This document shows, in pieces, positions 7,509 to 57,795 of a stretch of 64,000 nucleotides of DNA. Numbering within the stretch: the first letter of the stretch is position 1; each line of letters opens with the position of its first letter. Origin of the DNA: Octopus sinensis (Eukaryota); NCBI RefSeq assembly GCF_006345805.1, contig NC_043008.1, positions 3,782,001 to 3,846,000 on the forward strand. Reading direction: 5' to 3'. The notes under the pieces were generated by a model that saw nothing but the letters and a program-made list of their open reading frames with translations, was not told the origin of the DNA and ran no database searches. Both the position numbers and the translations under genes were made by a program.

Positions 7509-7552
7509 CTGTGACTTCGGAGTTTCGCCAAGCCAAAGCCATCGTCTGACTG
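7509..7552 (-). ncRNA. Degenerate minimal hammerhead ribozyme-like motif
   Basis: Minus strand reads cagt-CAGACGA-tgGCTttggcttGGC-GAAA-CT-ccga-AGTC-acag. Core order, stem III and a GUC triplet are present, but U4 and stems I/II carry mismatches. Confidence 0.4.
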
Positions 7553-8499
7553 CGATGCATTGGGGTTAATCTTATCCGTTTTAGAGTCTCTTTTGAGTTA
7601 AAATCTTCTTTGTGTATGTGAGGTTCAACGAGGCAGTAATTTTTATGGTTTGTTGTTATGGAGAAGTATTTTGTTAAACTTTTAATTGATTAAATTTGGG
7701 GTTATGTTACTGTATAGAATTTATTCATGTATGTAGAAATTCGTAAATAAGCCTGTAGGTGTTTCTCAAATGTTTGGTATGCCCGGATGTGAAAGTATTT
7801 TTGTTGCTGTTGGTTTTATTGGGTTTGATACTTTTGCTTTGATAATGTAAATGTCAAAGATGCAATGTCCAGTATTTAAGCTCTCACAAACGCACAGCCG
7901 TACCATCGTTATAACTAACCGTGTGACCTTTGTAAAATTGAATCCTACCACATTCTAACATGCACAGACCAAATCCTGAACCGAAACTCCGAACTAGTCT
8001 TTTCATGCAATCACAACATCTTAAAAACATTAAAACACTTTAAACCAACAATCTTTTCTAACAGCGAAACTTGTTAATTATCCATCCAACTCTCTCCTTC
8101 CACCTACACCATAACCATCCTCATAATATATAATAAAAGACATATGGACATAAACCTTTACTCAAACACTTTTGTGAACATCAAAGCACAAGAGAAACAA
8201 CTTTCTGTACTAACAAAGCCAGGACATGCCTGGCTCATAACCCCGACGGTACAAATGGAAACAAGAAATACCCTCAGTAACAGCAATAACAAGTAAAGAA
8301 ATGACTAGCCAAACCTTATATACATGCCTCGATATGAAGAAGAAAAAAAAAATATATATATATATACGCGCGCACAGGCACACACATCAATACATTTATG
8401 CATACATATAAATAAATATAAGTATAACCAACAATGAGAGATGCATAGATATGGATATTTTTATAAATATGCATAGATACGTGCATATGTATGTATGTA

Positions 8500-8573
<74 letters not shown>

Positions 8574-9119
8574 CATACAGATATATACATGCATCTACAT
8601 ATATATATATACATACATATACATATGCATATATACACGTACACAAATATGTACATAAATATGTAGCACACACACACTCGTATATGTGTATCTAGCGTGT
8701 GTGTATATGTGTATCTAGCGTGTGTATATGTGTATGTGAGTGTGTGCGGGTGTTGTGTGCGTATACACAAAGGCAGAGTGCAATTGAGAATGATATGGAT
8801 AGCATATAATAATAGAAAATACAGTGAGATAGGCATAGGTAAATATAAGAGAAGCAACGTGGTTCTCTTGTATATTCGGTGTGGATCGTCAGCTGCCAGA
8901 ACCTGAATGGGAGACGATTCCATGCCCGACAATAAAAATGCTGCATTGCGTATAAATAGTCAACTGAAGAATTCCTCTTCAAATGTAACATCAAAATCAG
9001 CTGCAATAAACGTATCAATTCCTAAGTAATGCACGCTGAATTTACCATGCAAGAAAAAAATTAAGATTATTATTGATTTCTTGAAAGCTATACAATTTAC
9101 TTACTGATAGCTGCTACAT

Positions 9120-10135
9120 TGTATATAGGAATGTATGTTTGTATGTATGTATGTGTGTATGTATGTATGTATGTATGTATGTGTGTATGTAAGTATGTAT
9201 GTGCGTATGTATGTATGTATGTATGTAAATATGTATGTAAGTATGTATGTATGATTGTATGTATGTACGTATGTATGTATGTGTGTGTGTATGTATGTAA
9301 GCATGTATGTATGTATTTATGTATGCATATATGTATGGACGTATGTATGTATGTAGGTAAGTATGTATGTATTTATGTAGGTATCTATATATGTATGTAC
9401 GCATGTATATTATATGTGTATATGTGTGTTATGTATATATATATATGTGTGTATGTATGTATATGTATATATATGTGCATGTATATGTGCGCATGTGTGT
9501 GTGTACTCATATATTCATGTAGGTGTGTATGTGTTTGTGTTCTTTTGTGTCGGTGTTTGTGTGAATTTACTTGTGAGTCTGTGTGCGTGCGTAATGTATA
9601 CACGCATATACATATATGTATACGTATATATATACATATATAAACACAGACACACACGTACGCACACACAGACACACACACATATATATATTAATATATC
9701 TATTTTATGTAAGTGGGTGATATGTATATGTGTGTGTGTGTAGACATCGTACAGATATTTGTCTCATTGTTATTTATATGAAAATACATATTTATATACG
9801 AACACACGTACAAGCACTCATACACACATACAAATGTCTACACATACTTTTATATATTAGAGGTGCATACACACACACGCGCACACACATATGCGTATTC
9901 ATATTTGTATATGAGTATTGTGTATCCACAAGTGTTTACAAGCACACACATATATTTATATGTACGTGCATATATACATGTATGTATATATATATATGTG
10001 TGATGTGTTTCTATGTATATGTATATGGGCATATATGTATAATATGTTTATTATCATTTGTTCAATACATGTTTATTTACGTATATTTATCAAGCTATGT
10101 CTGTACACACACACACACACACATGCATATCTAAT
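9120..10135. repeat. Long compound (TATG)n/(TG)n/(TA)n low-complexity tract
   Basis: Direct observation. It is the source of the many MYVC/HTYI ORFs. Confidence 0.9.
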
Positions 10136-11169
10136 TATGTATTGACACTGTAAAGCAGGGCACGGTGTGTGCGCATGCTTGAAACGAAATGCATTCTTCT
10201 ATTCTTGCATTCTTCACGGTAACACAATGTTGCGTATACGCATTCAAGTTGGTTGATTAAGAGTTCATTTTTTTCAATGCAGAACCCATCTGCTACATGA
10301 AGCGAGCTATCATTAACGAAATTGTTGATATGAATTATAGTTTACGCATAAAGTTGATTTTTCTGCGACACACACGCTATTGATTGGAATCATATATAGG
10401 TTAACATGTCCTGGTTAAGCGTACAAAACATGAATATGTTTGAGAGAAAATTACCACAGGGAATAAATCCGCATTCAAACTACAAAACATATGCTGTCAG
10501 GTCTTGGCTCTTGCATATGTAACAGGGCAAACTACAAGATCTCACGTCACTCAGATTATCTTTGCATTTAGTGAGGAAATGTCACCCTCCAGTTCTGTTG
10601 AAAACAGGTCTGTCATAGGACAAGTATGTACGCGCATGTCGAACAGAACAAGTTCTCCCACAGAAGAACACACGAAGAGACAGAATCATAGAAAAACACC
10701 GATAAAGTAACATCTGAGCGTCACACAATTTAATTAATTTAAGGACTCCATTTGTTTGTTGCTGTTTCATTGCTTATGTTGTTGTAGTTGTTGCTGTTTG
10801 GTGTGTTGTTGTTAGGTGTGGTGTTAATGGTCGTCATCGTGGTAGTTGTGCAGGTATTGTTTCCTTATGGATTTGGTCCTAGAATGCCTTCATTGAAAAA
10901 CACTGTGTTCAAAGACATTCCGGCCTCATTCAGTCGATCATTTCTTTATTTGCAAAAGGATCCTGGCACCACATTATCCGAAGTCTCTTTTATTTAATTA
11001 TTCTATTTCTTTTCGTTGTTTAAAGAAAGTAGGTTGTAATTTGGCGGAGAATTGGCTACTCTTTCAGCAGGTCATGCAACTACGCATTACCATTCTCAGT
11101 TATAATGCTTCAAGTTGTTGTTGTTGCTGTTGTTGTTGACATCGTTGTTTTTGTTGTTGTTGTTTTTTC

Positions 11170-11575
11170 GTAGTGTTCAGCGCCAGGTCAGCATTGATTG
11201 ATCAGAGCTATGACCGAAAGTAGACTAACCTTGACCAATTCATGTTTCTGTATATCTCGGACAATATCAATCAATGTCATTCTCATTTTAAGATGGTAGA
11301 GTGTAACGAAAGACTTGACTATTGTTTGTAGCAGCTAAAACGACCGCACAGAGGAGGCTGCCATTTTGGCTGTTCTTCTCGTTGCTGCTGTTGTTATGTA
11401 TCAGCTCTAAGTTCACCGTGATTGAACAGACCTAGGATCAAAGGTATTTCACTTGTTTCCATGACAACATTATCCAATGCGTCGCCTCCCTTTAATGCTG
11501 TAGAGTGTAATTTGAGGGATATTCGGCTGCTATACCTAGCATTTACAGCGACCAAGTAGTAGTTTCTTAGTCTGC
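11170..11575 (-). mobile_element. Two adjacent degenerate copies of the (AAC)n-tailed repeat
   Basis: (GTT)n tails are followed by CCAGGTCAGCATTGATTGATCAGAGCTATGACC and GATTGAACAGACCTAGGATCAAAGGTATTTC, then GTGTAATTTGAGGGATATTCGGCTGCTATACCTAGC (reverse complement of the family motif). Confidence 0.55.
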
Positions 11576-11593
11576 AATGAGCATCTATTTTAG

Positions 11594-11795
11594 TGGCAGA
11601 ATCATCAGTGCACTGAAAAGATTGCTCATTTATTCCGGCTGTCTCCGCTCTGGGTTCAAATTCCTTCGTGGTCAGCTTTGCCTTTTATCCTTTCGGGATC
11701 ACTAAAATAAGCAGCATTTGAGCACTAGGGTCGACAGAATCGTCTAACTCCCTCCCACAAAACTTTAGGCTTTGTGTCTACAATAGAAAGTACTA
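11594..11795 (+). mobile_element. Degenerate Nin-domain tRNA SINE
   Basis: GTGGCAGAATCATCAG..GGGTTCAAATTCC..CTTTGCCTTTTATCCTTTCGGGATCACTAAAATAAGCAGCA, followed by (ATT)n. Confidence 0.65.
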
Positions 11796-11861
11796 TCCTT
11801 ATTATTATTATTATTATTATTATTAATAGTAATATTACTTCTGTAACTTTTCTTCACTAAA

Positions 11862-12066
11862 TGCAGAATTGTCAGCACGCTGACCAAAATGCTTAGCGGT
11901 ATTTCGTCCGCCCTTATGTTCTGAGTTCAAATTCTGCTGATGTCGCCTTTGCCTTTCATCCCCTCGGGGTCGATGAAATAAGTAGGAGTTATACAGTTGT
12001 ATCAATGCAATCAACTCCCTCCCAGCCTCTAAATTGATGGCATTATGCCAAAATTTGAAATCACTA
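11862..12066 (+). mobile_element. Nin-domain tRNA SINE
   Basis: AAATGCTTAGCGGTATTTCGTC..TTCTGAGTTCAAATTCTGCTGA..CTTTGCCTTTCATCCCCTCGGGGTCGATGAAATAAGTA. Confidence 0.75.
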
Positions 12067-12805
12067 TTACTCTTGTAAATTTCTTGAAGCACAACTATGT
12101 GTCTTGTGATATTTAAATACAAATATGGATTTCATATGTGAACCAAAAGTTTTCATTCGCCTTTGATTATACAGGCATTATCCATTACTCCCTCCATGTG
12201 TTTATATCACCAATAACATTATTTGATCGGAATTTGTGGACAGCATATAATATTCACAGGGAAGACTGGTGTGTTTACTTTGGTCATATGTATCTGGTGA
12301 TAGAAACGGATGTGTTTCTGCCCCATTTAACCTCTTCACTGAAGTATATTTATTCAGTCGGCAAGATAAAAGCGATTAATAAACAGAAGGAATGCAGTGC
12401 TCATGATTACGAAATGTTGAGAACATTCATAATATTATGGATATCTCAAGGGAGATTGAAATACACTGATTGAATATACGATGCAGTCTCACATATGATC
12501 AATTGAAGAAATTCAGTTTACGGAGATTATTTGTGTAATTTAGTAGACAATATCACTGAAAAATTAAATAATCCCTTCTATAATGTCATCATGGACACAC
12601 TGCCTCTTCCTAGACAAGTGACACAGCCATGGCTTGAATGCCTCTCGTCATAGGTCTGATCTGTACTTGCTCTCAATGATGAGATGCATACAAAGAAAGG
12701 ACGATTTTCATTTTCATTTCAACGATTGTCACAAGAGATCCAGCTGCCTGATCATAACCAGTCCAGATATCGCCCGCTGAAGGTAATTCAGAAATACGTG
12801 TGTGC

Positions 12806-12873
<68 letters not shown>

Positions 12874-12958
12874 CACACACACAGAGGCACATATGTATAT
12901 ATAAGTATGTGCACACGCAAACATGCATACACACACTATATATATATATGTTTGTATG

Positions 12959-13042
<84 letters not shown>

Positions 13043-15406
13043 CTGACAATTATCCATCGTCTGTTATTCTCCATTTGGTCATATCTAAGTAGAATGTATG
13101 GTTCTATACAACAGCCGTACTTTATTGGGTTTAATTATCCCTGATGTTTGTAGATAGAAACATATGAAGGCAGAATTTATCGCTTTCGTCGTTTTCGTAG
13201 TGACAACAACACCAACATCAGCATCACCCCCGCTATCAGCATAATTACCATTGCCATGATCATAACCATCATCCTCATCACCGCCATCATCGCAGTCATC
13301 ATCATTACCATAACCAAACCTCTCGTCGTGTGTTCCACTCCAACAAAATCAATCCCAGCATTCCTCCTCTCCTCCTAATCATTGTCTCCGGCGTCGCCAT
13401 TGTTGCCGAGTCGTTTCTGCAGCTGAAGTCGAAGTTTTATCCGCAAACGCTGTCTAAACAATGTTCTTGAAGGCAAAAATATGCGTATGCATGTATGCAT
13501 GTATGTATGGATGGATGTATGAATGTATGTAATATATATATATATGTGTGTGTGTGTGTGAGTGTATATATGCATCTATGTATGTGTGTATGTGTGTATG
13601 AGTGTATGTGTATGATGCCTCTGCATAAGTATTTATGTATCTACAATAATGTTTTGTTGTTTGGATTGCTGCTGATTTGAAGAATTGTCGATTTATTCTG
13701 TTTTCCTTTGTGTATCGTTAAGGAGGAGCTGCAGACTTGTCAGTTGTCTTAACTGGTGTCATTGGTATTAATAGTAGTCTCTGTAGAATGTTTGCTTGCA
13801 TAGTTTTCGCTATTTATATTCTACTCTACGTCCCAGGTATGTTTTTGTATATGTCTCCTTTTCAAATATGATAAATAGACTAAACACACGCACGTATTTT
13901 TGGCCGATTCATCACAGCGTACTTAGAAAATGCATGACGCGTTTTGTATAGTATATATATCGGCCATTATGAACACTAAAGTATTTTCCTCGTTGTTTAT
14001 TGTTATCACTGTTTGCAGTGAGTCGACGTGACAAAGACATCCCTGTGATCTGTTTATATTTACTTTAGGAAAACATATATAGTGGAGAGGGGCTTTCAAA
14101 GCATTTAATACGGGCCTTTGAAAATTGTGAGTGTCCACCCTGTTTACCTTGAGGGAATAAAAAGATATTTACACTCTGAACAATACTATGAAAAACGTTT
14201 ACGGTTACAGCACCAACCAATGCAACTGTAACAATAGAATCCCTTAGGGAGAACCAAAACGGCACTACACTTTTCTACTTAAAACACTGGAGATGGATTA
14301 GTTCCCAGAAGAAAAAAAGACATGCGTCTAGAGGTATGTTTTAAAATGTTGTGCCTCATCGACCGAAGATTTCATCGAATAAAGGTCTAGGGTGAAATAA
14401 GCATACTCCTGCTCCTCGAGAATCGAAGGGAGCTTTTATATGCTCTCAAAAAAGCAGTTAAAGAAAGTTCTGACCGAAATGGGGCACGATGTATGCTTCA
14501 TCGATTGGGGTATGGCGTAAAGGAATGTGTACCTACCATACTTCGTAGTTAGTATTCTTAAGACGTGAAGACGATCCCCCCCCAAAAAAAGCAAACTTGG
14601 AGCATCATACGCCTTCTCGCAGAGGGACGCTGCAATACAACGAGAACCAAACATAATGATCAAAACATGAGTATTAATGTTAAACATTTTTGCCTTTTTT
14701 CCTAACACATTCTCATCGAGTCCGTCACCCTACAGATGTAGATGTTATATATCCTGAAATTCCTTTATATCACATTGCTGTATAATGTATGTATGAACAA
14801 GAAAATGAAATTATTGTTAATTTATCTCTGATGTTTAAAAGAGTCAGCTTGGTGCAGGATTGTGTTCACATAACCTGATTTTCGTATTCCACAGAAATGA
14901 CCAAACTACACGCAATATTTAGCAGAAGAAAGAGATATGTCACTGAAGTTTCTTGCAATTCATGAGCTATTAGATGGAATTAATCGGATAACATCAAATC
15001 GATTAATGGCTCTATTCTCTTCGTTGTATTTACAATGAATATAATGAGAAATATGTAATGTAGAAATGGCAACTACATATGTTTTTGTCAAACCGTCTCA
15101 TCTAACATATAAACGAATATAACTTGCGGTATAAAGTACGATTACATATTACGCTTCTGATCTTTATGGGAAAGCAAATATTTTTACATTTGGCATGTCG
15201 GTATAACGGGAGTTGTTCATATAACCATGTTGATTAGACGTCCACACAGTAAACACGTGGTAGCAGGTTCAATCCGAAGTGCAGACTTTTGCCAATTTTC
15301 TTCTGTTATATCTATTGTAAGCTATTTAAGAAATAGAAACAGCAATACTTCCATCTCTCTCTCAATCTCTCTCTCAATCTCTCTCTCTCTCAATCTCTCT
15401 CTCTCT

Positions 15407-15454
<48 letters not shown>

Positions 15455-16851
15455 TGCATATAGGTATATGCGTGCTTGCCTACATGCATAGTCATGTGAT
15501 AACATAATCAGGGCATTGAATAAAAGTACCTTGCGTTAATTAGTTGATTACCTGCCCAGATCGCCTTTGGCTGTCAAGTTAAGTGCCTAGCAATTACTGG
15601 GTTCGAAATAATCGAGTAAGACCCATAAAGTGCATGCCCCACTTTCGTCATGGTCCAATGACTGATGTTCTTAAAAATGCAATAAGTTTCATTCTTTTTT
15701 GATATTGCAGTTTAATTGTAAATATGCAGTTATGCACACTTTTTTTACTAGCTGCATTTCTGCAAATGCAAAAGTATTTCCTTCAAGACATAATGTAATT
15801 GTCAGCTACTACAAAACTTATTTGTTTTATTTTATTACTAGTATTATCTGCAAATTGATTTTCGTTCTTTTTTCTTTCTTTTTTTTTCTTGGAAGCGATG
15901 TCAACATATTTGTGTGCGTAATTTGTCAAACATGTCAGCATACAAATGGTAGATTGCAGAAAGTTATATATTTATTTAATTATTTATTTATTTCTATAAG
16001 ACTACAAAAGCGCATTCTTAGCGCACTTCCTAATATAATTATATGTATGTATTCACACATACTCACACACATACTTACATACACATCTATATATATATTT
16101 ATAAATATATATGTATACACACACATATATATAATATTCTTTTTTCCTTCTTTACGTCAATTAGAATAGCTTTTTAATCCATCTATCCTTCTAACTGGTT
16201 CAACTGTTCAATTTTCTTATCTGAATATGACTTCATTCTTTACTAACAAATTATCTCTGATTTGTCTCTGAATTTATGATTTCGTATAGTTGAGAATTAA
16301 TCAGTTACACTTTGATCATAATTTCAAACGCATACATCCCACCAATTTTTTTATTAGTATTTTCCACCTTTGAAATAAAGTGTTATGCAGAGATAGTTAC
16401 GTTTTGTTTTGAAAAGTAAGTTTTTCCTTATAACAATATAATGCCAAATAAAGATTTCCGTAGAACTGAAGGGTGCTGACATTGAGACCGTTACTTTACA
16501 CTGTAGCATGCTGTCTACTGGACCATATATTAACAGCAATGGGTGGTCTAACAGTTCATACTTATTAGATGTGGTCAAACTGGACAAGTTACAGAACAGG
16601 CAAAAAAATGTATTACAGAATCCATTAATGATTATCATATAAGATATAAAAAGATGATGGTTAGTCCAATAATAGCAATAATAGTTTCAAATTTGAACAA
16701 AAAGAAAACCCTATTATCGACCCTGGAGTGATGACTATTGGCATTGGCGACGTCTCAGAAATACTGTAAGGCATTCGGGAATTCTAAAGATTCTGCCAGC
16801 TCACTCATTTAATAATTTGCATTAAATATTACCTCTAAAGATTAGAACAGA

Positions 16852-17005
16852 TGGACAGAGGAAATAGGTATAAACCCCAGTTTAGTACAGCTTCAAGAAG
16901 CAGTGTTATTTGGGACAGCTAGGGTTCTTGACATCTAAGGTTACTTGTTGTAGCCCGATGCTAGGAATTTTTCTTTTTCGACAGTTTAACTTGTTGTGAG
17001 TTTAT
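16852..17005 (+). pseudogene. Old R4/Dong non-LTR retrotransposon 3' end remnant
   Basis: Translates WTEEIGINPSLVQLQEAVLFGTARVLDI*, matching the R4/Dong C-terminal LQKxxLLGTARILR motif. A short UTR and an (AAC)/(AAT)n tract follow. Confidence 0.65.
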
Positions 17006-17024
17006 GAACAACAACAACAACAGC

Positions 17025-17076
<52 letters not shown>

Positions 17077-17101
17077 TAATAATAATAATAATAATAATAA
17101 T
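17025..17101. repeat. (AAT)n microsatellite, target site of the Dong insertion
   Basis: About 25 AAT units directly 5' of the element. A second (AAT)6 lies at 17883-17900. Confidence 0.95.
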
Positions 17102-17669
17102 GTGTCGTGTATGCAAGCAACAAAATGAAACCATTGACCATGTGGTCTCCAAGTGCAGTCTTCTAGCGCCTACAGAGTATCTCAACAGGCACGATAGAGC
17201 TGCACAATATATTCACTGGGTAATCTGTAAAAACCTGGATTTGCCCCATGAAAAAAACTGGTGGGAACACAAACCACCCCCAGTGCTTGAAAATGACCAC
17301 ATCTCACTCCTCTGGAACTTCACCATTCAAACTGACAGGAAGATAGATGCAAATAGGCCAGACATCATATTGAAAGACTTCAAACAAAGAACATGCCTCC
17401 TCATTGATATGACTGTCCCAATCGATATAAACGTATCTGTCAAGACCTACCAAAAACTGAGCAAATATAAAGATCTTGAAATAGAAATCAGCAAAATGTG
17501 GAAGCTGAAGACTAAAACAATACCTGTTGTCATAGGTGCCCTGGGAATGATAGCAAAAGGGGCTGATAGCTACCTAACTCAGATACCAGGAAACCCAAAA
17601 ATGGCAGAAGTTCAAAAGATAGTGCTCATAGGAACTGCTCATATCCTACGCAAAATACTCTCTATGTAA
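17100..17669 (+). CDS. C-terminal part of an R4/Dong-clade non-LTR ORF: CCHC zinc knuckle plus restriction-like endonuclease (5'-truncated, no stops)
   Basis: CRVC-x8-H-x4-C, YLNRHD, LLWNFTIQTDRKIDANRPDIIL, LLIDMTVP, KLSKYKDL, IPVVIGALG, GTAHILRK are the R4/Dong RLE motifs. 189 uninterrupted codons. Confidence 0.9.
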   Translation: MCRVCKQQNETIDHVVSKCSLLAPTEYLNRHDRAAQYIHWVICKNLDLPHEKNWWEHKPPPVLENDHISLLWNFTIQTDRKIDANRPDIILKDFKQRTCLLIDMTVPIDINVSVKTYQKLSKYKDLEIEISKMWKLKTKTIPVVIGALGMIAKGADSYLTQIPGNPKMAEVQKIVLIGTAHILRKILSM

Positions 17670-17882
17670 TCTCAAGGTTTAAAACAAACATAATTTTCGG
17701 TTTAAAAAAAAAAAATAAAACCTTTTTTTTTTAGACATTCATTAGTACAACATCCCCACCCCCCAAATATATGGCACACTAGGCATAACAACAACATGAA
17801 CTCCCAACCCTGTTGTCTCTTGAGGTCTCTGGGTGAGACTTGGAGCCAACTTGTACAAATATAAAGCAAAAGTCAAACATAG
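17101..17882 (+). mobile_element. 5'-truncated R4/Dong retrotransposon inserted in (AAT)n
   Basis: RLE ORF plus ~210-bp 3' UTR with (AAT)n on both sides. TAA-repeat targeting is established for Dong elements. Confidence 0.88.
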
Positions 17883-17930
17883 AATAATAATAATAATAAT
17901 ACATACATACATACATACATACATACATAC

Positions 17931-18315
17931 TGTCTAAAAATTTGCCCTGATAGGAACAGTCCACATCCTACGCAAGACACTATCAATTCAATAATGCAAC
18001 CTAAACAAAACAACCCACAAATACAAGATACACTCTATACAACATTTACCCAGTGAAATAAACTCCCACCAGCAAGCCTAAAAACCCAAAGCATTCCATA
18101 CTCAACACACAATACAAGCAGTAACACAACAAAAAACAGAACCACACCTCAAGGGAAAAAAGCTAAAACAATACAGTACCGGGAAGAGATCGCACACTCC
18201 CAACAGCAGAAAAGAACACGCAATGCTGCACACCCCCCAACGACACGGGGGTGTAGCAGGTGATGCAGTAGAAATTTACCTCAATCTACCAAATATTGAA
18301 CAGCTATATAATGAT
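17931..18315 (+). pseudogene. Second old R4/Dong 3' end remnant
   Basis: 17941-17994 translates FALIGTVHILRKTLSIQ*, paralogous to VLIGTAHILRKILSM* of the young copy. The downstream UTR boundary is approximate. Confidence 0.6.
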
Positions 18316-19404: not shown

Positions 19405-19535
19405 GTAGGTCCCGGGTTGATTCGGGGTTAACCACAGTAAATAAGGTACTCAATACATAGCAGAGTAAAATTAATTTATTATATAGAAGGAGCTTCTACA
19501 GGACTAGAACTGTTTCATTCAAGAGAAATCTTCAA
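19405..19535 (-). mobile_element. 130-bp mini-element in (TA)n with truncated hammerhead-like motif
   Basis: Unique insert between two (TA)n arrays. Minus strand reads TTGAAGA-tTTCtcttGAAt-GAAA-C-agttcta-GTC-ctgtag, then AATAAA and a TACTC..GAGTA hairpin. Confidence 0.55.
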
Positions 19536-19548
19536 TATATATATATAC

Positions 19549-26745: not shown

Positions 26746-28167
26746 TTTTGAGATCAACAAATGTTACATTCTAACAAAATACTGTTATTAGCTTCGATTA
26801 AGCAAGCCTATTAGTTTTCAGAGTCTGACTTTCTGACTTAACTGCGAACAAATATCAAATATTTGCATAGAGTTCTAATTTTCATAGATGCGCCGAAATA
26901 TACATATAAATGTGTGCGTGTGTGTGTGTGTGTATGAGTGTTTGTTTGTGTATGTATGTGTCTGGTATGTGTGTGTGTATTCGCACACATGTATGTACAT
27001 ATGTACCACGATACATTTCCTTACAATGTATATGTATTCATTACACACACACACACACATTTACACACACAAACACACATGCACACACAAACACACACAC
27101 ACACACATGTATATATTATGAATGTGTGTGTGTGTGTGTCATAGGGCTAGTTTTATAAGAACATCTCTGAATACCACAGTCGAGGACAGTAAAAGAGGTT
27201 TCTGTATATCATTGCGCATGCGTTACCGGAAGTCTATAATAAACCTGTATTTTTTGAAATATCAAAGACATATATATTTTGTGGACAATTACAGATTTTT
27301 TAATCCTCTATACTTAAAGTATTTTTGTCTATTTGTGTTCCCACTTTGATGAAATAAAATACCTTTGATAAATCAAGTTCTGTATATGAATACATTTAAA
27401 TGAGGCTGCAACATGTTAAGTTGTGCTGTAGTGGAAAATTGCTTAGTGAATATTGCTTTGGTAGTGTTCTGCGAAAATATATGATAAAAAACTTAGGTTG
27501 AAGTTATCGAGTTTTCGAGAATATTTTTTTTATATTAAGTTGTATACAGTTTTATCTTTGCAATATAAATGACGAACCGACATTTTTTTATTTGCTAACT
27601 TTCACTCGAATTACACTCTATCATCTTACTACATTAATGTTCTCCAATGTGCAGAATCTCCGTAAAAATTCGGTATGATCATTGTTCGAAGATCTTTGAT
27701 CAAAACTTTATTCGCTCGGGGCTAACCAGAGACTAAACTTCATCAACAAAGCATAACATCAGCAATAACAAAATCTGCTTGAAATTGTTGTGTAAAAACT
27801 TGTTCTTATATTCACTTCAGGTAAACATATAGTATGTGAAACCCTTAAATTGATGGGTAGAGACTACTTACACCTAACTTCTTAATCTGTCTATTATTGC
27901 TTCAGAAACGGTGTGATGCGATTGTAATTAATTTGCCTCGAATTTTCATTGGAGGAACTTTTTAAAACAATTTCTGTGACGAAATTACTTCAATAACTGA
28001 GATTATATGGTAGATTCTGCCAAATAGCAGACCACTCAAAAGTAAGGGTGCGTGCATGGAAGCATACAAAATTGTTTACTTGCTATTCTATACACACAAA
28101 CGCACACAGACACACATGCACACGCACACACACTCTTTATTTTCTCTCCTTGTTTCTTTTTGTGCTC

Positions 28168-28203
28168 CTTTCTGTGGAAGAGCGTAGGCTCGAAACGTTA
28201 AAG
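28168..28203 (+). ncRNA. Minimal type-I hammerhead ribozyme-like motif (Penelope pLTR type)
   Basis: cttt-CTGTGGA-A-GAGC-gtag-GCTC-GAAAC-GTT-aaag. Stem I is cttt/aaag, stem II is a perfect 4 bp, and stem III is the palindromic AACGTT. The core deviates from CUGANGA at A6. It lies within a ~155-bp insert (28132-28286) between CA and TA repeats. Confidence 0.6.
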
Positions 28204-28285
28204 ACTCTTTCACTTCCCGAGCGTTAAACTAATACATTTGTTAGTTGTCTACACCACCATTTTGTTTTCTTTTGTGAATTCTCCC

Positions 28286-28317: not shown

Positions 28318-28858
28318 CATATATGGATCCATGACGTCACCAACTGTGCAACAACATGAAATAGGTAAACAAGAGAGAAAATGGAAAACAGGAAAGTAAG
28401 CACAAAGAGGTGACTCGTCATCAGTTGTCGGCTGTCTATATACTCTTCATTTCGAGCATTCAACGACAATATGAGTCTTCAAAGACAGATGCTCCGATAA
28501 ATTCTAAAATAAAATCTAGGGTTTATGAAGGGTCAAAATTGGGAGCAGAAACAGAACAATGGAGACATACAAAGAAACCGAACGAAAACAGACACGGAGG
28601 GTCGTTAGACCAGAACGATAGGAAAATATTGAACGCTGGGAGTAATGTTATCTTTGAAAAGAGAAAAGATAGAGGAGAGATAAAAAAACGCCCAGTCTTT
28701 TGACCGTCCGTGCAGGAAAAGGAAGATGGTCACGTGTCGAAAAGGAAGATGGACGATGGTCACATGTGGGCAACGAGAGAGAGAAGAAGAGAAAGGGGAC
28801 GCGAAAAGCGTTGAAAGAGGGAGGGAAGAAAAGGGATATATATATATATATGTATGTG

Positions 28859-28900: not shown

Positions 28901-29470
28901 CATATATGGATCCATGACGTCACCAACTGTGCAACAACATGAAATAGGTAAACAAGAGAGAAAATGGAAAACAGGAAAGTAAGCACAAAGAGGTGACTCG
29001 TCATCAGTTGTCGGCTGTCTATATACTCTTCATTTCGAGCATTCAACGACAATATGAGTCTTCAAAGACAGATGCTCCGATAAATTCTAAAATAAAATCT
29101 AGGGTTTATGAAGGGTCAAAATTGGGAGCAGAAACAGAACAATGGAGACATACAAAGAAACCGAACGAAAACAGACACGGAGGGTCGTTAGACCAGAACG
29201 ATAGGAAAATATTGAACGCTGGGAGTAATGTTATCTTTGAAAAGAGAAAAGATAGAGGAGAGATAAAAAAACGCCCAGTCTTTTGACCGTCCGTGCAGGA
29301 AAAGGAAGATGGTCACGTGTCGAAAAGGAAGATGGACGATGGTCACATGTGGGCAACGAGAGAGAGAAGAAGAGAAAGGGGACGCGAAAAGCGTTGAAAG
29401 AGGGAGGGAAGAAAAGGGATATATATATATATATGTATGTGTATGTGTATATATATATATATATATATAT
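28286..29470. repeat. Tandem duplication of a 583-bp unit bounded by (TA)n
   Basis: Identical ORFs at 28410-28703 and 28993-29286, and GGATCC at 28325 and 28908 (offset 583). I see no differences outside the microsatellite. Confidence 0.95.
28432..28488 (-). ncRNA. Degenerate hammerhead-like motif in the duplicated unit (second copy 29015-29071)
   Basis: Minus strand reads ctgtct-TTGAAGA-...-atgctc-GAAA-tgaagagtatat-agacag with stem I ctgtct/agacag. A further CTGATGA lies 7 nt downstream. Stems II and III are imperfect. Confidence 0.35.
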
Positions 29471-29977
29471 TCCTGAGATATGTGATTATGTATGCATATG
29501 AGTATATATGTGTATTCATATGTACATGTATGTTAAGCGCAAACATATACACGTACACAAGAGGAGGAAAACAGAGGAAACGACAGAGTTAGAGAGTAAG
29601 AGAGAGAGAGAGAGAGAGAGTGAGAGAGAAAGAGAGACAGACAGACAGACAGACAGACAGGCAGACAGAGAAAGAGCGAGTGACTTCATTGAGAAGATTA
29701 GGCCGAGAGCATTTTGGAATGTTATTCTAAATTAATCATAAATGACAAAATAAATATGAAATAATTAAATATCTTTAATAAAAGAGATTAAACTGAAACA
29801 CATTAACTTCAATACATTTTTGAATGTATGCAAATATATGGATACATACATATGTGTGTGTGTGTGTGTGTATTTGAATGCGTGTGTGTTTGTGTGTGTG
29901 CTTGTATGTGTGTGTGCGTGTGTATAGAATTGCATACATATATGCATATATATATATATACCGAATAAACACATAAA

Positions 29978-30115
29978 TGTGAAACAAGGTGGAAAAAGAG
30001 TACTCAAATACCAGTGGTAGAGTAATATGCTTTATTTAGCAAAAACTGTCCGACGAACGGGGACGTGAAACTCAGAGTAACAGGTTTTGTTGAATTTTCC
30101 GCTGCTTTAAATAAA

Positions 30116-30121
<6 letters not shown>
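29978..30121 (+). mobile_element. ~145-bp Penelope-like mini-element: inverted tail, hammerhead, tail
   Basis: ATATGCTTTATTTA (30025-30038) is the inverted copy of TAAATAAAGTATAT (30108-30121), and the pair encloses a hammerhead fold. The element abuts a long (TA)n. Confidence 0.65.
30040..30089 (+). ncRNA. Minimal type-I hammerhead ribozyme-like motif
   Basis: caaaaactgt-CCGACGA-ACG-ggga-CGT-GAAA-CTC-a-GAG-TA-acaggttttg. Stem I 9/10 bp, stem II 3 bp, stem III ACTC/GAGT, GUA cleavage triplet. The only core deviation is U4 to C. Confidence 0.7.
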
Positions 30122-41444: not shown

Positions 41445-42895
41445 TCAGTCCATGTGGTTATAACGTAACATTATAATGTATGTATGATTTTCGGTAATGC
41501 AGAGCTCGCATTTACTGCACCGTCCCGTGTACTTGCTGGTCTTAGTTATAATGCTCCACTTTATATAGGTGTTGCTCACGTTCCTCTCTTTAAGTGTCCT
41601 TACCATATTGGATAAAAGAGTTCTCTGTTTTATGTTTTTATCTCTGAGTGAAGCCACGTGCTGTGCATATTCTCTTTGAATATGTTTCCCGTCATTGCAT
41701 TGTAAGTCTTTGTTTTTCTGTTCAAATCCGTAATGCTGGCCTTATACACTAATTCTGTCTCCACGAACCTAATTTTTCAGGGGTCAATTACAGGAGATAT
41801 TCTTAATGTTGTTATTTTTATTGTAGTTGAAAACGATCAACTCTATGTTTAGGAGGCAACTGTAGTTAGCTTTAACCACATTTGAAGATCTTGTTGTATT
41901 TATGTGAGTGAGGGAAGTGGTTATATTTACTAGCTATGTTCATGGCTGCGTTCAGGTTATATGAGGGATTGTACCATAACATTTTCCTGTGTCTACGTCT
42001 TCTTGGTCGATCTACATTTGATTCGATATTCGTTATACTGCTCTTTAAAGTGGGCTTTTCTGATGCAACGTTGTAGTATGAGGCAGCCTTTTATAAAATG
42101 CTTTGTGAGGGAATAGGTTGGAAACATGCCGATTAATTTTATTATGTAATTGTTTGAATATTGACAGTCGGTGGTTAGAACCTATGACAATAGAGGAAGT
42201 GACATCATCCGATTTATGGTCGAGTTTAAATTTGCCTGTATTAACATTGATATTAATGTCTTGGAAATTAATTATTTTAAAATTAGTGTTCATTGTAGTT
42301 CTTAGGTTCACTTTCCTAAATATTTTGCATAATTATTTACTTGTCTTACCCATAACGTGTTCATTTTTGTTATGTACTTTTCCAAGACAGTTGTCCCTAC
42401 ATAGCCGTATGTCAGCTAAACTTATCTCGCCTGTAAGGACATCTAGGCTGTAAAGGTAAACCAGATCTGCCATCTTTGCACCATCATAACTCCTCATCGT
42501 GACATCAAAGAGTCAATCCCCATTCTTTTTAGCCCAATAGGAATTATCCTCAAAAAGTAATGATTTCCTTGCAGTCATTATAAGGGGCTATGTGTGTATT
42601 AGTACCTTTTGAAGTAGGTGTTTGGAGATCGAAGGGTAAAACTCCACGATATGGAACTGCATATATTTGCATTTGGGCATAGCTTCGATTTACTTGAACC
42701 ATTCGATGGTTGCACTGCTGTGTATCCATTGAATAAGGTTTGCTGTGTCGTATGGTGTTGTTTCTGAAAATGCCTATTTCGCTTTTCGTGGGATTTATCA
42801 ATATACAGCAGAAGTTTTACGTAAAATTACCTTAGTGGTCTTTCAGGGATGTGTCGTTCCATATACATGAAAATGTTGAGATATTTAGCAACGTA
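41445..42895 (-). pseudogene. Decayed Penelope-like retroelement ORF (RT plus C-terminal GIY-YIG endonuclease)
   Basis: Minus strand gives, in order: SLKDH, LINPTKSEIG, VEFYPSISK, WAKKNGD*LFDVTMRSYDGAKMADLV, LCRDNCL (YRDD-like), IINFQDININVNTGKFK, LVYKASI, KWSIITKTSKY..KCELCITE. Multiple stops and frameshifts. Confidence 0.85.
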
Positions 42896-46036: not shown

Positions 46037-46325
46037 TATTTCTTTACTATCTCGGCGGAATTTGAACTCAGAACGTAACGACAAACGAAATACCTATTTC
46101 TTTACTACCCACAAGGGACTACATACAAAGGGGACAAACAAGGACAGACAAACGGATTAAGTCGATTATATCGACCCCAGTGCGTAACTGGTACTTATTT
46201 AATCGACCCCGAAAGGATGAAAGGCAAAGTCGACCTCGGCGGAATTTGAACTCAGAACGTAGCGGCAGACGAAATACCGCTAAGTATTTCGCCCGGCGTG
46301 CTAACCTTTCTGCCAGCTCGCCGCC
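46037..46325 (-). mobile_element. Full-length young Nin-domain tRNA SINE with re-started tail
   Basis: Reverse complement of the SINE at 600-833. 15-bp TSD TTCAATTAACGTACC (46022-46036 and 46326-46340). An extra ~57-bp internal segment is repeated after the first tail. Confidence 0.92.
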
Positions 46326-49300
46326 TTCAATTAACGTACCACACAACGTCATAGCAATAACTTTCACACCGCTAGCTTTCTTCTTTCTTTCTTTCAGCCT
46401 CTCCCATACCTGTTGCTTCCTCTTTGGGATTATCTTTATCTCTTCCCTATATTAAAACCTTAATACTCGGTCTCTTTAAATGTAAGCTATATATATTTCG
46501 TACTATTCTCAATAAATTCGTATTATCTTGTTTTCTTATTTTGATATCCTTACCTATTAACCTCTTATCTCTTATAAGTTGTTACTGTTCTTAAACAGAG
46601 ATCTATATACTTTCTAGTTACTTAAGTCTATGCCAGTTGATTATAATATATCCATAGTAACGTATAAATATTTGTGTACGTTTGCGTGTGCACATAGATA
46701 AATATGTGTGTTTATCATTACACAATCTTAATTTTTTTTCTGATTCTTAGCTTAAAATTAATATATGGATAGCATGTTTATCTTTCCAGTATTCCATAAG
46801 TAAATTCCCAGAGCAGTTTTTATAGAAACCACCTAATAAGTAAATAATTAAGTACATGAATATCAAACTGATTCTATGTAATCTTCCCTTTTTAATGTTG
46901 AAAATTAATAAATATATACACATTTTATCTATTTTGATTATATCATTTTTGATAATCTTAAAATTATCTTTATACAACATAACAATATTATTTATAAACA
47001 ATCACCCACAGTACACAATGATAAAATTTCCTGTCTTAACACCATAGGTTTTATTAGCGTTTTGCCCCTTTAACATCTTGATTCGGTGTCTTCCCCTACC
47101 CAGCCTCCTTTATAGACAGTTACTTTAATAATACTCCTAAAATCTTGACAATATTTATGACCATACCTAGCTATGAGCTGTCAACTCACTCCTGCCCTCT
47201 ATTCTAAACAGACATAGTCCTCTAATCTAGATTTAGTAGTTGATAAAAATACTAATACATTTAAAATGAACCACAATCCTTTACAAGCTATGACCCCAAC
47301 AGACTTCATGCATTTCTTAGAAGTGTAGTCTATTCTTAGCTACAATAGCGACAACATGGATTTCTTCTACCAGAAGAGACACGACAGGTAGACTGACAGA
47401 AGACGTGACGTACACACACACACAAACACACAGATAGACACACACACACACACACACACAGACACATTTATATACAAACATACATTCTCATTATATAGTA
47501 TACATTTGTGCTTGGGGGTACGTAGGTGTGTGTTTGTGTGTGTGTATGTATATATGTATGAGTATGTCGCAGGCGTGTGTGGTTATATATGTATGTATGT
47601 ACATACGTATGTGTGTGGGAGTTCCGTTATGATGGACGACAGAAACTTTGCATGTGAACATCTGTTGTCAACATATCAACCCCTTCTCCCCTTCCTCACA
47701 CCTACCTTCCTTCCCCTCCTCAACGTTTTGGAAGTTACTTGTGTGTGTGTGTGTGTCTGTGTGTCTGTGTGTGTGTGTGTATACATGTACCTACGTATTT
47801 ACTTACGTATGTGTGTGTCGTGTCCATCGTCCACCAAGCCCCGCCATTGCTGGAAATTATCCTAATTTAGATAGGATAGGAAAGGATGTTTCTATATCTT
47901 CCTCACTACACCTATTTCTTGAGTAAATGGCAATTTGAAATTCAGAAATACGATGCAACAAACTTCAGCTGTGCATACACACACACACATACATATTCAA
48001 ATATACGTACATACATACATACATACATACATACATACATTCATACATACATAAATACATACATACATAATACATACATACATACATACATACATACATA
48101 CATACATACATACATACATAATACATACATACATACATACATAGATACATACATACATACGTCTATTTACCGGAGTACAAAATTGAAGCTAAAGCGAAAT
48201 CGAATTACATTAAAATAAATTTTTGCTGATGTCATTGTTAAAATAATTTACAATATTTTGAAATTGGAAATTCAAAAATTAAATTCGCAGTTTTGTTTTT
48301 TGTTTCACACAATGTTTAGTTTACTTGTTTAAGGACAACATTAATTAAAATACTGAAATTCTTCAACCGTTCTGTCAACCGTTTGATATTCGTTAAAGCT
48401 ATTTCACAAAGAAAATGTTATATTTTGCAATAATGAACCAAAACTATGGCGAAAGTATAAGTAAAAGAAATAAGAAAATGTAAAGTGTAGAAATACATAA
48501 AAAAGAACATACATCCCTGTAAACTCAAAACTTCAATCAGCTTGTCATATGTAGCAATTAGATGGGTGTTTATGCCTTTGGTGAGAAAAAGTGAGTACTG
48601 TAAATTATGTCGATACATTTTACAAGTACTAATTGGCTCACCATACCGTTTAAAGAGAAGATCAGAAATTTTGATCATGACATTTTGCAATTTCTTGTAT
48701 TTCTATCTCTTTTAGACATTTATCTATTTTGTTTTAGTTGTTTGTTTATTTATTTTGTAATTACTTTTTGCGTTACCGACGTTTTGTGCAGTCAGATATT
48801 CTTGGCCCGATCTCAAAGTAGCGTTCATTTGCTCTGGCGACGGAATTACAGAGTTGCCTGATCCAGAAGAGAGACTCCGAGCTGCCTGCGGGCAAATGTT
48901 TCTTCTGTCCTCTATCTAATAAAACCACATTTCGTGTAAAACGGTAGCATACTATTCAACTAGCGTAAATATCTCTACTGACTGCTAATGATTCTTCATG
49001 ATGAATGATAAATAAAAATGAGTCCCGAAGACAAAGAGTACTCTCCAACTCTCTCACCCTCAGACTCCCTCACTTTCTCACACACACACTCTCTCTCTCT
49101 CTCTCTTTCTCTCTCCCCCGCTTCTTTCTTTCTACCTTTCTTTCTTGGAGGCTGAGTCCGCAGGCCAGTGTTATGGTTTCGATTTTGATCTATTTAACTT
49201 CTTTTACGTCGTTAATACTCACGCTAAAGGCATGAACATGACAAATTAGTATTTGTTTCACCTTATTCAACAATTCGTTTTCTGCTTCTTTTTTTTTTAT

Positions 49301-53310: not shown

Positions 53311-53320
53311 ATAACGCATA

Positions 53321-53368
<48 letters not shown>

Positions 53369-55470: not shown

Positions 55471-56681
55471 TATATGTGTGTGCGTAGGGGGTATGAATGT
55501 ACATTTGTACCTACGCGCATACATACATGTGTGTATGTTGAATATTTATACGCATCATACACACACACACACACTCACAAACACACACACACACACACAT
55601 GCATATATAATTATCCACGTTAATTTTTTCAGTCTCTCTCTCCCACTTACTCTCTTTCTTTCTCTCGCTCCCTCTTCCTCTCTCTTTCTTTCTCTTTCTT
55701 TCTTTCTCTCTCTCTCTCTCTCTCACCCTGGATATATCTTGATGTTTGGAAACACTCTTGGGTTTCTCAAGAAGGGCAATCTACATAACCCTCTCAACGA
55801 TTACCCTTCACCGCGCTTCCAGTATTTTGACAGCAACGTTTTTCCTATATCTTTGAATCTGTTTCTCTCCTCAGTGATTAGGCTTTCGGGATGTCAGACC
55901 TACTGGACTCCTGCTCTCTAATACCATTCATCAGTTGGCTCTGAAAGAAATGCGCTGGAAATCATTTTGTTTCAGTATGTTTTCTGCCAAATTTCCGTGC
56001 AGCGAAGCAGCAGAGACAACATATTTCGAAAAGGATATATTTACATCTTTATCACTTTTTAATATGTCCTCTCCAAATCCTTTGAGTATTAAATATTTGT
56101 AAACATAAATTAAAAATGGAAAATAAATTCTTCGGTGTCATCATTATGATTATTAACTAAAATGAAAACCAAAACCCAAAAAATGTATATATGCGTTTCG
56201 TTAATTAGCAGTAGTAGCAGTAGTGGTGGTATCAGAAGATTAGCAACATTATAATTTGCTCTAATCATCATCGTTATCATTATTATAATAATTAACCATC
56301 TCCTCATAATCGTTGTAGTCGTGGCTGTCGCTGTCACCATCCTCACAATGAGCATCATCATTATCTTTATCGACATCATTATCATCTACACCATCACCAT
56401 CACCATCATCATCATCATCATCATCACCGTCGTCATCATTATTTTCACCCTCATCTTCATCATTTTCCTCGAAATCATCATCATCAACATAATCATTGTC
56501 ATCGACTGTATTTATATTTAAGAAAGTAATCAACTGTTAAGATCTAATGAATGAAATTAAGCATAATTATATATGCGTGTGTGTGTGTGTGCATGATGCG
56601 TATAGATATTCAACATACACACATGTATGTACGCGCGTAGGTACAAAATGTACATTCATACCCTCTACGCACACACATATA
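55471..56681. repeat. Spaced inverted repeat: 55471-55614 versus 56563-56681
   Basis: TGTGTGCGTAGGGGGTATGAATGTACATTTGTACCTACGCGC..GTTGAATATTTATACGCATCAT is reverse-complementary to ATGATGCGTATAGATATTCAAC..GCGCGTAGGTACAAAATGTACATTCATACCCTCTACGCACACA. Spacer ~950 bp. Confidence 0.88.
56262..56505. repeat. Degenerate (CAT)n trinucleotide tract
   Basis: Direct observation. It gives the poly-Asp, poly-Ile and poly-Met ORFs. Confidence 0.85.
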
Positions 56682-56700
56682 TATATACATATATATATAC

Positions 56701-56747
<47 letters not shown>

Positions 56748-56829
56748 TATATATATATATAGATATATATATATATTTATATATATATACATACATACAT
56801 ACAAACATGCGAATATACGAAGAGATCAT

Positions 56830-56873
<44 letters not shown>

Positions 56874-57596
56874 ATGATCTGTTCGTCATTTATTGCACTC
56901 ATCAATCAAGTCTGTGAGTGTTAATTGCTTAAAATTAAGCTATATGTCATTTATTATTTCAATTATATCATATATAATTTATCACTAACAATTAAGTTAT
57001 CTTATTTTATATTCCGTTTAATTTTTTCTCTTCGATATCAGAATTGGCAACGTCATTATTATATGTGAATTATAATATAACATCGTTGATAGCACGAGTG
57101 TCCCTGACATCGCTATCAAATATCTATTAATTATACTCGGAATATTACCCTTTAGGGTTCTATTAATTTATTATTCTTTATTTTGTTATTATTTGTGACA
57201 ATACCTCATCGTGATAAATATTTTCTATGAAGATCTTAAGATGTAGGGTTAAACTGAAAACCGAAACGTTTGAATGAGGCTGACATTTGAAGATTAGCAA
57301 ACATATCGTGTGTGTGTGTGTGCGTGGGTGTGTGCGTGGCTGTGTGAGTGGCTGTGTGCGTGGCTGTGTGCGTATGCCCGCGCGCGATTGAGTGTACTTA
57401 ATAATTATTAAGTAACTTTTGACTTCAGAGAACGCAACTCGCCGCTATGTTTTACACCGACAAATAATATCATGTATCCATCTATCGATCTATTTATACA
57501 CACACGCAAACACATACATATGGTGAGGTACTGCATCAACCTACTTGATAGTATTTACTGCGCTCTGCCGAGTGGATTTATGTATGTATATATATA

Positions 57597-57639
<43 letters not shown>

Positions 57640-57644
<5 letters not shown>

Positions 57645-57795
57645 ATATGTGACAATTCTTCGGTAGCCATGATAAAACTCCGAGTTTCGGATGCCGAGGT
57701 GGAAATTCACGCCGCCATCTCTTCAGTTATCCGGCCATCGGCATCCGAAACACAGAGTTTTATCATGGCTACCGAATAATTGTCACATATTACAT
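57640..57795 (-). mobile_element. 156-bp fold-back mini-element (58-bp inverted arms) carrying a hammerhead motif
   Basis: 57640-57697 versus 57738-57795 are 55/58 complementary. The element begins at the end of a (TA)n array. Confidence 0.85.
57671..57731 (-). ncRNA. Type-I hammerhead ribozyme-like motif
   Basis: Minus strand reads gataa-CTGAAGA-GATGgcggcgtgaatttccacctcggCATCc-GAAA-CTC-g-GAG-TT-ttatc. Canonical CUGANGA and GAAA, 5-bp stem I, stem III ACTC/GAGT, GUU triplet. Stem II is offset by 1 nt. Confidence 0.7.

What the first reader, a model, noticed from the sequence alone, without database searches (positions are those of the whole stretch)
7509..57795. Population of sequence-unrelated, microsatellite-embedded mini-elements each carrying a minimal hammerhead ribozyme fold
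Seen: at least six different short non-coding inserts (7509-7552 -, 19490-19535 -, 28168-28203 +, 28432-28488 - in two copies, 30040-30089 +, 57671-57731 -). They share little primary sequence but show the same order: stem I, CUGANGA-like core, stem II, GAAA, a short or palindromic stem III, NUH, stem I. All sit in or beside (TA)n/(CA)n. Established: Penelope-like elements carry minimal type-I hammerheads in their pLTRs, proposed to cleave as dimers, and retrozymes are non-autonomous hammerhead retroelements. Inference: this genome hosts several non-autonomous ribozyme-bearing families mobilised by Penelope RT/GIY-YIG, at roughly one per 10 kb in this window. A decayed element of the potential partner type lies at 41445-42895. 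I cannot tell from the sequence whether these families are already catalogued.
Basis: partly seen in the sequence, partly recalled or inferred. Interest (0 to 1): 0.8.

Follow-up and report, generated by a model that had tools for sequence, protein, structure and literature searches.

The report
Scrambled-order hammerhead in animal retroelements
Five of the six inserts are ordinary broken-off tail ends of Penelope-type jumping genes, but the sixth belongs to a large group of protein-less repeats whose predicted self-cutting "hammerhead" RNA has its three parts in a scrambled, knotted order that we could find reported only from environmental samples and one bacterium.

Summary
All six inserts are real repeat-family members with a hammerhead-like motif. 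Five (A, B, C, E, F) are 5'-truncated 3' ends of longer Penelope-like elements (PLEs): longer copies run into RT/GIY-YIG coding sequence (one full-length copy for B; weaker for C). That is the known minimal type-I hammerhead story, and this scan has met it in other genomes.

The sixth (D, 28325-28830 minus, two identical copies) differs. It is a roughly 680-nt ORF-less unit that occurs head to tail. It instead fits, with no core deviation, the non-circular "type SGC" hammerhead permutation.

Two young sister families and further variants show the same order with different, compensating stems. In a blind test, 26 of 52 loci picked only by blocks G and C carried the predicted upstream S block (shuffles 0.4, metagenome controls 0 of 80). 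Rough copy numbers are about 10^4 per family.

Type SGC was published only from environmental sequence data, and the published search patterns exclude the A bulge seen here. Cleavage and circular RNA are untested; stem II is weak and has a covarying competitor.

The parts
28325..28830 (-). Family D copy 1: 5'-truncated copy of a roughly 680-nt ORF-less, retrozyme-like unit, 3' end in (TA/TG)n
28908..29413 (-). Family D copy 2, identical to copy 1, 583 nt apart (local duplication or assembly duplicate)
28413..28488 (-). Predicted type-SGC hammerhead. Block S 28475-28464 (U16.1 at 28471, H17 at 28470, predicted cut between 28470 and 28469); block G 28457-28446; block C 28430-28413 (exact core 28424-28418, bulge 28417); distal extension of stem III 28488-28483 paired with 28437-28432. 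In this copy one stem III pair is lost and the bulge is C; the family has A.
28996..29071 (-). Same predicted type-SGC hammerhead in copy 2
28490..28494 (-). Upstream 5-nt strand complementary to the G-block strand of stem II; it covaries with that strand across families (candidate off-switch)
7485..7880 (-). Family A: decayed 3' end of an old Hydra-type PLE; hammerhead 7509-7552 with mutated core and stems. A weak endonuclease-like match lies inverted at 7922-8050 (E 8e-4).
19405..19536 (-). Family B: 3' end of a young Hydra-type PLE, truncated inside the hammerhead core, with tail, between (TA)n
28134..28285 (+). Family C: 3' end of a PLE-like element; minimal type-I hammerhead 28168-28203 with A6U and an A bulge
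29960..30116 (+). Family E: inverted tail (about 29960-30033) joined to the forward 3' end (30036-30116) of a Hydra-type PLE; hammerhead 30046-30083 with U4C
57642..57868 (-). Family F: forward 3' end with hammerhead 57671-57731 plus an inverted copy bearing the tail; 3' end of a Hydra-type PLE
41445..42895 (-). Decayed Hydra-type PLE (RT and GIY-YIG remnants with many stops and frameshifts); not the parent of B, E or F

Best explanation
Five of the six inserts are 5'-truncated ends of Penelope-like retroelements carrying the known minimal type-I hammerhead motif, while the sixth belongs to a group of ORF-less 0.7-0.9 kb head-to-tail repeats that carry a covarying hammerhead in the non-circular order S-G-C, predicted to self-cleave and likely copied by Penelope-type enzymes. 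Shown: family membership, ORF links for A, B, E and F, lack of a PLE ORF and more-than-unit copies for D, H and I, exact core letters, and three stems in register that change together across families. Inferred: a read-through transcript is cut once per unit at the S block; the unit-length RNA is likely circularised; a PLE RT/GIY-YIG protein nicks (TA)n, primes at an AU-rich tract of the RNA and copies it round, giving 5'-truncated, inverted or 1.1-1.3-unit insertions. An upstream strand that can pair with the stem II strand likely acts as an off-switch (speculative).
For: ORF links: B full-length copy L398 has hammerhead plus tail, then a 688-aa frame, then a second hammerhead 5.8 kb on, and the B end lies in 12 of 30 loci of that ORF; F in L330; E endonuclease end in sense about 1.2 kb upstream in 5 of 30 loci; A in L192. 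Inversions and one-sided tails match Craig 2021 fig. 2.

D anatomy: 26 of 29 loci start within the first 16 nt of the unit, 10 of 29 follow another unit's 3' end, and 12 of 54 repeat the unit start after the 3' end.

SGC fit: 10 of 96 decayed D copies pass a strict six-permutation descriptor, all as SGC, against 0 of 28,800 shuffles; 1.67 Mb of shuffled loci gave 0 hits. That scan found two more SGC families, H and I, with head-to-tail periods of 883-955 and 836-880 nt; 28 of 30 and 22 of 30 copies pass.

Blind test: a pattern naming only blocks G and C gave 125 matches against 9 for the control. Of 52 loci examined, 26 had at least 8 of 10 Watson-Crick pairs to an upstream S block; shuffles gave mean 0.4 and maximum 4; the downstream control gave 0 of 52 and metagenome matches 0 of 80.

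Covariation on a sequence-only alignment of 39 rows: 15 of 21 pairs change on both sides; 81.6% of cells pair against 41-52% when slid; score 0.377 against 0.207 shuffled, 0 of 500.
Against: No cleavage, RNA end or circle was observed. Stem II is 4 bp with two G-U pairs and about zero free energy on its own. Nested folds are unremarkable (z -0.1 to +1.1 for D, H and I); in H and I they favour an upstream strand pairing with the stem II region, and that rival pairing covaries too. No covarying stem I-II helix like Eckert's was found (own 4.23 against cross 4.10).

Covariation counts come from related copies and are inflated by descent; the count of pairs with double changes was reached by 19 of 500 shuffles and the pair-type count by 172 of 500. 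16 of 52 pattern loci were dropped before aligning (a type-I family, truncated or unrelated hits). The pattern forced a mutated position 2.1, so that pair is broken in 36 of 39 rows. A GU-tolerant, wider downstream control was less clean (5 against 14 at score 9 or more; 32 against 28 at 8 or more).

No autonomous PLE sharing the D, H or I 3' end was found. The ORF link for C rests on a recalled peptide ending in two copies. Pfam did not recognise the PLE ORFs.
Confidence: 0.72

Rival explanations
1. The S-G-C arrangement is real and selected but is held inactive or is a slow, factor-dependent ribozyme. The dominant fold pairs the upstream strand with the stem II strand, and the element spreads from uncut tandem transcripts.
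For: Minimum-energy folds of H and I use the upstream pairing. It is 5-6 Watson-Crick pairs and covaries. PLE minimal hammerheads cleave poorly in vitro (Cervera 2014).
Against: Exact core letters and all three stems are kept across divergent families, which is hard to explain without catalysis at some stage.
Confidence: 0.15
2. D, H and I are 3' parts of autonomous PLEs with internal (TA)n tracts rather than non-autonomous units; the ORF-bearing parent was missed.
For: B and E have long microsatellite-rich 3' UTRs. Searches score only the best candidates. One 5'-truncated I copy has a sense Hydra endonuclease remnant about 0.9 kb upstream.
Against: Seamless head-to-tail junctions with 0.84-0.95 kb periods in H and I; fixed start and wrap-around in D; no shared upstream sequence beyond the D unit.
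Confidence: 0.07
3. One reading: all six are independent non-autonomous mini-elements with type-I minimal hammerheads.
For: Short copies between (TA)n dominate; D is non-autonomous.
Against: Variable 5' ends and ORF links for A, B, E, F and probably C; D has no type-I stem II.
Confidence: 0.03
4. The SGC match is a chance complementarity in an AT-rich repeat.
For: I looked for alternative parses after the type-I parse failed.
Against: 0 of 28,800 and 0 in 1.67 Mb of shuffles; independent families with different stems; the blind S-block test.
Confidence: 0.03

Closest known systems
Type-SGC hammerhead ribozymes, HRIMA-1 and variants (Eckert et al. 2023, PMC10085705; parts 1, 3, 4 and 5 of 8, methods section 7 and supplement passages read)
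   Same: Block order S-G-C, exact core letters, short S-G linker (3-6 nt), three mutually crossing stems, compact size
   Different: [quoted passage not shown] Here the motif sits in an animal genome's repeats, has an A (not U or no) bulge after A9 that their SGC patterns exclude, a G-U-rich stem II, an extended stem III, and no detected stem I-II helix.
Non-LTR retrozymes of animals (Cervera & de la Pena 2020, PMC7229834, passages and discussion read; Li, Clavereau & Pollet 2026 bioRxiv 10.64898/2026.07.22.740005, part 1 of 5 and passages read)
   Same: ORF-less, one hammerhead per unit, head-to-tail copies, proposed PLE mobilisation
   Different: Described with type-I hammerheads and 150-450 bp units, often in arrays. 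Here the hammerhead is SGC, units are 0.7-0.9 kb, and most copies are dispersed, truncated or 1.1-1.3 units in (TA)n.
Minimal hammerheads in PLE pseudo-LTRs (Cervera & de la Pena 2014, PMC4209133; parts 1-2 of 4 read)
   Same: Families A, B, C, E and F: type I, short or palindromic stem III, core variants, thousands of solo truncated copies; a bulge at 9/10.1 in A and C
   Different: Nothing essential; family-level U4C (A, E), A6U (C) and non-G-C 10.1-11.1 pairs (B, E) are local variants.
Hydra clade of C-terminal EN+ PLEs (Craig et al. 2021, PMC8557442; passages and section 11 read)
   Same: CxCX5C linker, (TA)n targets, hammerhead, inverted truncated copies and one-sided tails (B clearly; A, E, F and the 41445 element by similarity)
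   Different: B is about 5.8 kb with a microsatellite-rich 3' UTR, longer than the under 3 kb described; tails are about 60-100 nt rather than 30-40.

Membership tests
Type-SGC hammerhead (D, H, I) | Blocks in 5'-3' order S, G, C | tested here: met
Type-SGC hammerhead (D, H, I) | All core letters (CUGAnGA, GAAA, UH, G10.1-C11.1, A15.1-U16.1) | tested here: met
   majority letters of 96 D copies; H and I copies; an extra A after A9 is present
Type-SGC hammerhead (D, H, I) | Covariation in stems I, II and III | tested here: met
   5 of 6, 1 of 4 and 4 of 5 pairs with double changes; related rows, no R-scape
Type-SGC hammerhead (D, H, I) | Helix joining the distal sides of stems I and II | tested here: inconclusive
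   an upstream-downstream pairing was no better in own than in cross comparisons; the exact geometry of Eckert's helix was only inspected by eye
Type-SGC hammerhead (D, H, I) | Site-specific self-cleavage | not testable with these tools
   needs an in vitro assay
Non-LTR retrozyme (D, H, I) | ORF-less unit, head-to-tail copies, one hammerhead per unit | tested here: met
   longest ATG frames 68-131 aa, no PLE protein match within the units
Non-LTR retrozyme (D, H, I) | Type-I hammerhead | tested here: not met
   SGC order; it works like a retrozyme but is not a member as defined
Non-LTR retrozyme (D, H, I) | Expressed as circular RNA | tested here: inconclusive
   only contigs available; the head-to-tail joint also stands in a run not guessed as RNA
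PLE 3' ends with minimal type-I hammerhead (A, B, C, E, F) | Continuity with an RT/GIY-YIG ORF | tested here: met
   B; F; E; A; C only by a recalled peptide ending
PLE 3' ends with minimal type-I hammerhead (A, B, C, E, F) | 5' truncation, inverted copy, one-sided tail | tested here: met
   inverted copy E 25 of 30, B 18 of 23, F 30 of 30 (query-biased), A 7 of 30, C 0 of 30; variable 5' extents
PLE 3' ends with minimal type-I hammerhead (A, B, C, E, F) | Dimer cleavage | not testable with these tools
   Lunse et al. 2017 not held; seen only as a citation
Hydra-clade PLE | CxCX5C linker before GIY-YIG and (TA)n targeting | tested here: met
   B ORF; degenerate in F and A; definition
Hydra-clade PLE | Placement in an RT phylogeny | not tested
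   no reference PLE proteins on hand

The most novel reading that the evidence does not exclude
This animal genome hosts a radiating superfamily of Penelope-dependent, circular-RNA retroelements, tens of thousands of copies, built on an active pseudoknotted type-SGC hammerhead with a built-in off-switch: the first non-circularly permuted ribozyme in a eukaryotic genome, probably arisen independently by rearrangement of a PLE type-I hammerhead.
Probability: 0.55. Interest if true: 0.82.

Novelty: new variant of a known kind. Interest (0 to 1): 0.7.

Why it matters
Non-circular ribozyme permutations were first reported in 2023 from hostless environmental RNAs. An abundant, recently active genomic example with a known host and many covarying families would show that this topology evolves and works in animal cells. 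It would give natural sequences for structure and kinetics, and mean that hammerhead and retrozyme surveys, which use type I-III patterns, under-count them. The conserved rival helix offers a testable answer to a question Cervera 2020 left open: how retrozyme circles avoid re-cleavage. The rest of the finding is ordinary PLE debris.

Tried and rejected
Rfam on the window, the D region and an H copy showed no hammerhead match. RF00163 over the genome gave 7 other type-I loci. The repeat finder was swamped by microsatellites.

PLE ORFs next to L036, L077, L094 and L185 are neighbours, not parents. A type-II parse of D was rejected (no stem I hairpin), as was the type-I parse (four core deviations). 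A simple inversion origin of the D complementarity was rejected because the partner strands lie in the wrong order. The L505-type matches are an ordinary type-I family.

Sequencing runs: no RNA holder listed. Contigs laid on H show the head-to-tail joint in two guessed-RNA runs and one other run, and no molecule ends; no evidence either way.

Literature searches for prior reports found none describing SGC in animal genomes: hammerhead + Penelope + Octopus (14); hammerhead, non-circular permutation, SGC from 2023 (76); retrozyme + Octopus (89); hammerhead ribozyme + cephalopod + transposable element (90); hammerhead + permuted + retrotransposon + pseudoknot + metazoan (99); retrozyme + non-LTR + hammerhead from 2024 (112). 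Subscription papers, Repbase/Dfam and bioRxiv supplements were not visible. Earlier-findings look-ups for D's sequence, for SGC and for this genome were empty. Unbiased genome stretches for copy density were not obtained.
Full report
Setting. The window lies in a 2.72-Gb animal genome with about 30 large contigs and dense TA/CA microsatellites. From recall this looks like an octopus; no call confirms it.

Observation. All six are present. Taken singly they do not beat chance: 0 of 6 pass an exact type-I descriptor and 1 of 6 passes with one core change, with shuffle means of 0.1-1.7. Rfam showed no hammerhead. Each is a member of a dispersed family. Majority letters across 28-53 copies show a minimal type-I hammerhead for A, C, E and F; for B the intact form is seen in full-length and inverted copies. 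The window's B copy is cut inside the core and its A copy has decayed.

Five ordinary families. Copies have fixed 3' ends at microsatellites and variable 5' ends (A about 60 to 1400 nt upstream, C 39 to 730). Many have an inverted copy and a tail on one side only, as described for PLEs (Craig 2021). Longer copies run into coding sequence. L398 has B hammerhead and tail, then a 688-aa frame, then a second B hammerhead 5.8 kb on, and the B end lies in 12 of 30 loci of that ORF. L330 links F to RT and GIY-YIG frames. E has an endonuclease end in sense in 5 of 30 loci. L192 links A to a decayed frame of the same type. The CxCX5C linker in B matches the Hydra clade. For C the link is only a peptide ending I recall as typical of PLE endonucleases, in 2 long copies. 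Pfam did not recognise these proteins, so their naming rests on motifs and mutual similarity. In L398 the tail is the sequence between hammerhead and ORF, so copies spanning the cut site came from uncut tandem or re-joined RNA (inference; the model of Cervera 2014). The decayed element at 41445-42895 is of the same type but 28-37% identical over its main matches to the B, E and F proteins. This part is known, and earlier notes of this scan report the same in other genomes.

Family D. D behaves differently. Of 29 loci found with its 5' part (one contig-end locus dropped), 26 start within the first 16 nt of a unit of about 680 nt and 10 follow the 3' end of another unit. Of 54 further loci (short contig-end loci and the window's own copies dropped), 12 repeat the unit start just after the 3' end. 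No sense PLE ORF was found upstream. So the template was a tandem or circular ORF-less RNA (inference).

The D ribozyme. A second, exact core lies 50 nt further on, and its partners lie upstream in the order cleavage-site block, GAAA block, core block. This is the non-circular type SGC of Eckert 2023. A descriptor treating all six orders alike passed 10 of 96 D copies, all as SGC, and 0 of 28,800 shuffles. It marked both window copies (28413-28474, 28996-29057) and two unrelated SGC hits in 1.67 Mb of held loci, with 0 in shuffled loci. These two hits are young families H and I (2392 and 1991 candidates, top copies 94-99% alike). They form seamless more-than-unit insertions with periods of 883-955 nt (6 of 30 loci) and 836-880 nt (6 of 30), and 28 of 30 and 22 of 30 copies pass a GU-tolerant SGC test, as do 21 of 96 D copies. 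Their stems differ from D's but pair, and their cut triplet is GUC.

Blind test. A genome pattern naming only blocks G and C gave 125 matches against 9 for the reversed control. I examined 52 of them (the first 12, plus 40 chosen by me for diversity from the 100 listed). 26 have at least 8 of 10 Watson-Crick pairs to an upstream S block; shuffles give 0.4 (maximum 4 in 2000), the downstream side 0 of 52, and metagenome matches to a like pattern 0 of 80. A GU-tolerant version with a wider downstream window separated less well. After dropping 16 rows (a type-I family, truncated or unrelated hits) and adding D, H and I, a sequence-only alignment of 39 rows gave 15 of 21 pairs with double changes, 81.6% paired cells against 41-52% when slid, and a covariation score above all 500 shuffles; two of five measures were less clear (19 and 172 of 500). 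Rows are related, so these are not probabilities. Rough densities from flanks of other loci give about 12,000-14,000 copies each for D, H and I, 50,000 for C, 12,000-18,000 for B, E and F and 1,500 for A (1-33 hits each, and flanks are enriched for microsatellite-targeting elements).

Against. Stem II is short with two G-U pairs and near-zero energy alone. Nested folds are not better than shuffles, and in H and I favour an upstream strand pairing with the stem II region. That rival pairing covaries between subgroups, so both folds appear selected. It may delay cleavage or silence the circle; Cervera 2020 noted that such blocking is needed. No stem I-II helix stood out. No autonomous element with a D, H or I end was found. 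Sequencing runs were uninformative.

Comparison. Eckert 2023 found no such RNAs in genomes of known organisms apart from one weak GCS. Their SGC patterns accept only no bulge or a U bulge after CUGAUGA, which explains a miss of the A-bulged forms here. Animal retrozymes are defined with type-I hammerheads, and a 2026 preprint deriving them from PLEs searched only type I. Six literature searches found no SGC report in animals; closed journals and repeat databases were not visible.

Verdict. The finding as written is five parts known PLE debris and one part non-autonomous element. That one part carries a predicted pseudoknotted SGC hammerhead shared by a diverse, recently active superfamily. Structure: well supported by comparison. 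Catalysis, circles and the mobilising enzyme: inferred.

Noticed in passing
L232 (minus, about 5560-5620), L271 (about 3250-3290), L228 (minus, about 5200-5250): 3' ends of three other near-intact PLE families carry type-I hammerheads with core variants: G3-C8, U3-A8 and A9C, read by eye.
   Followed up: no
window 28168-28203 and family C: A6U is the majority letter in a family of roughly 50,000 copies, while a related family (L228 6650-6830 minus, L239) keeps A6; activity unknown.
   Followed up: partly
window 19490-19536; L098-L120, L300-L329: 5' breakpoints and inversion points of B and E cluster at the upstream edge of the hammerhead, not at the cut site; partly an effect of the query.
   Followed up: partly
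window 28446-28438 and 28482-28476 (minus); L449: The internal loop in the extended stem III of D and H resembles a loop E / sarcin-ricin motif (recalled consensus). In D the same region also reads as a dead type-I core, a possible relic of the ancestor.
   Followed up: no
L470 (about 683), L448, L474: Truncated I and H copies sit directly on or close to the 3' ends of other PLE families without a (TA)n spacer; this may be template jumping or shared targets.
   Followed up: no
L449:915-1812: Family H words occur in runs labelled as five different organisms, so the family may be shared among related species; the shares are modest.
   Followed up: partly
L189, L241-L248, L398: The young B element has a 2.4-3.2 kb 3' UTR made largely of TA/TG microsatellite-like sequence, so it spreads microsatellites and its own targets.
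   Followed up: no
window 16965-17669 (+): 234-aa stop-free frame, the C-terminal part of another non-LTR element beside an (AAT)n tract.
   Followed up: no
window 601-836, 11863-12016, 46092-46327: Copies of a SINE-like repeat in opposite orientations (92% and 80%).
   Followed up: no
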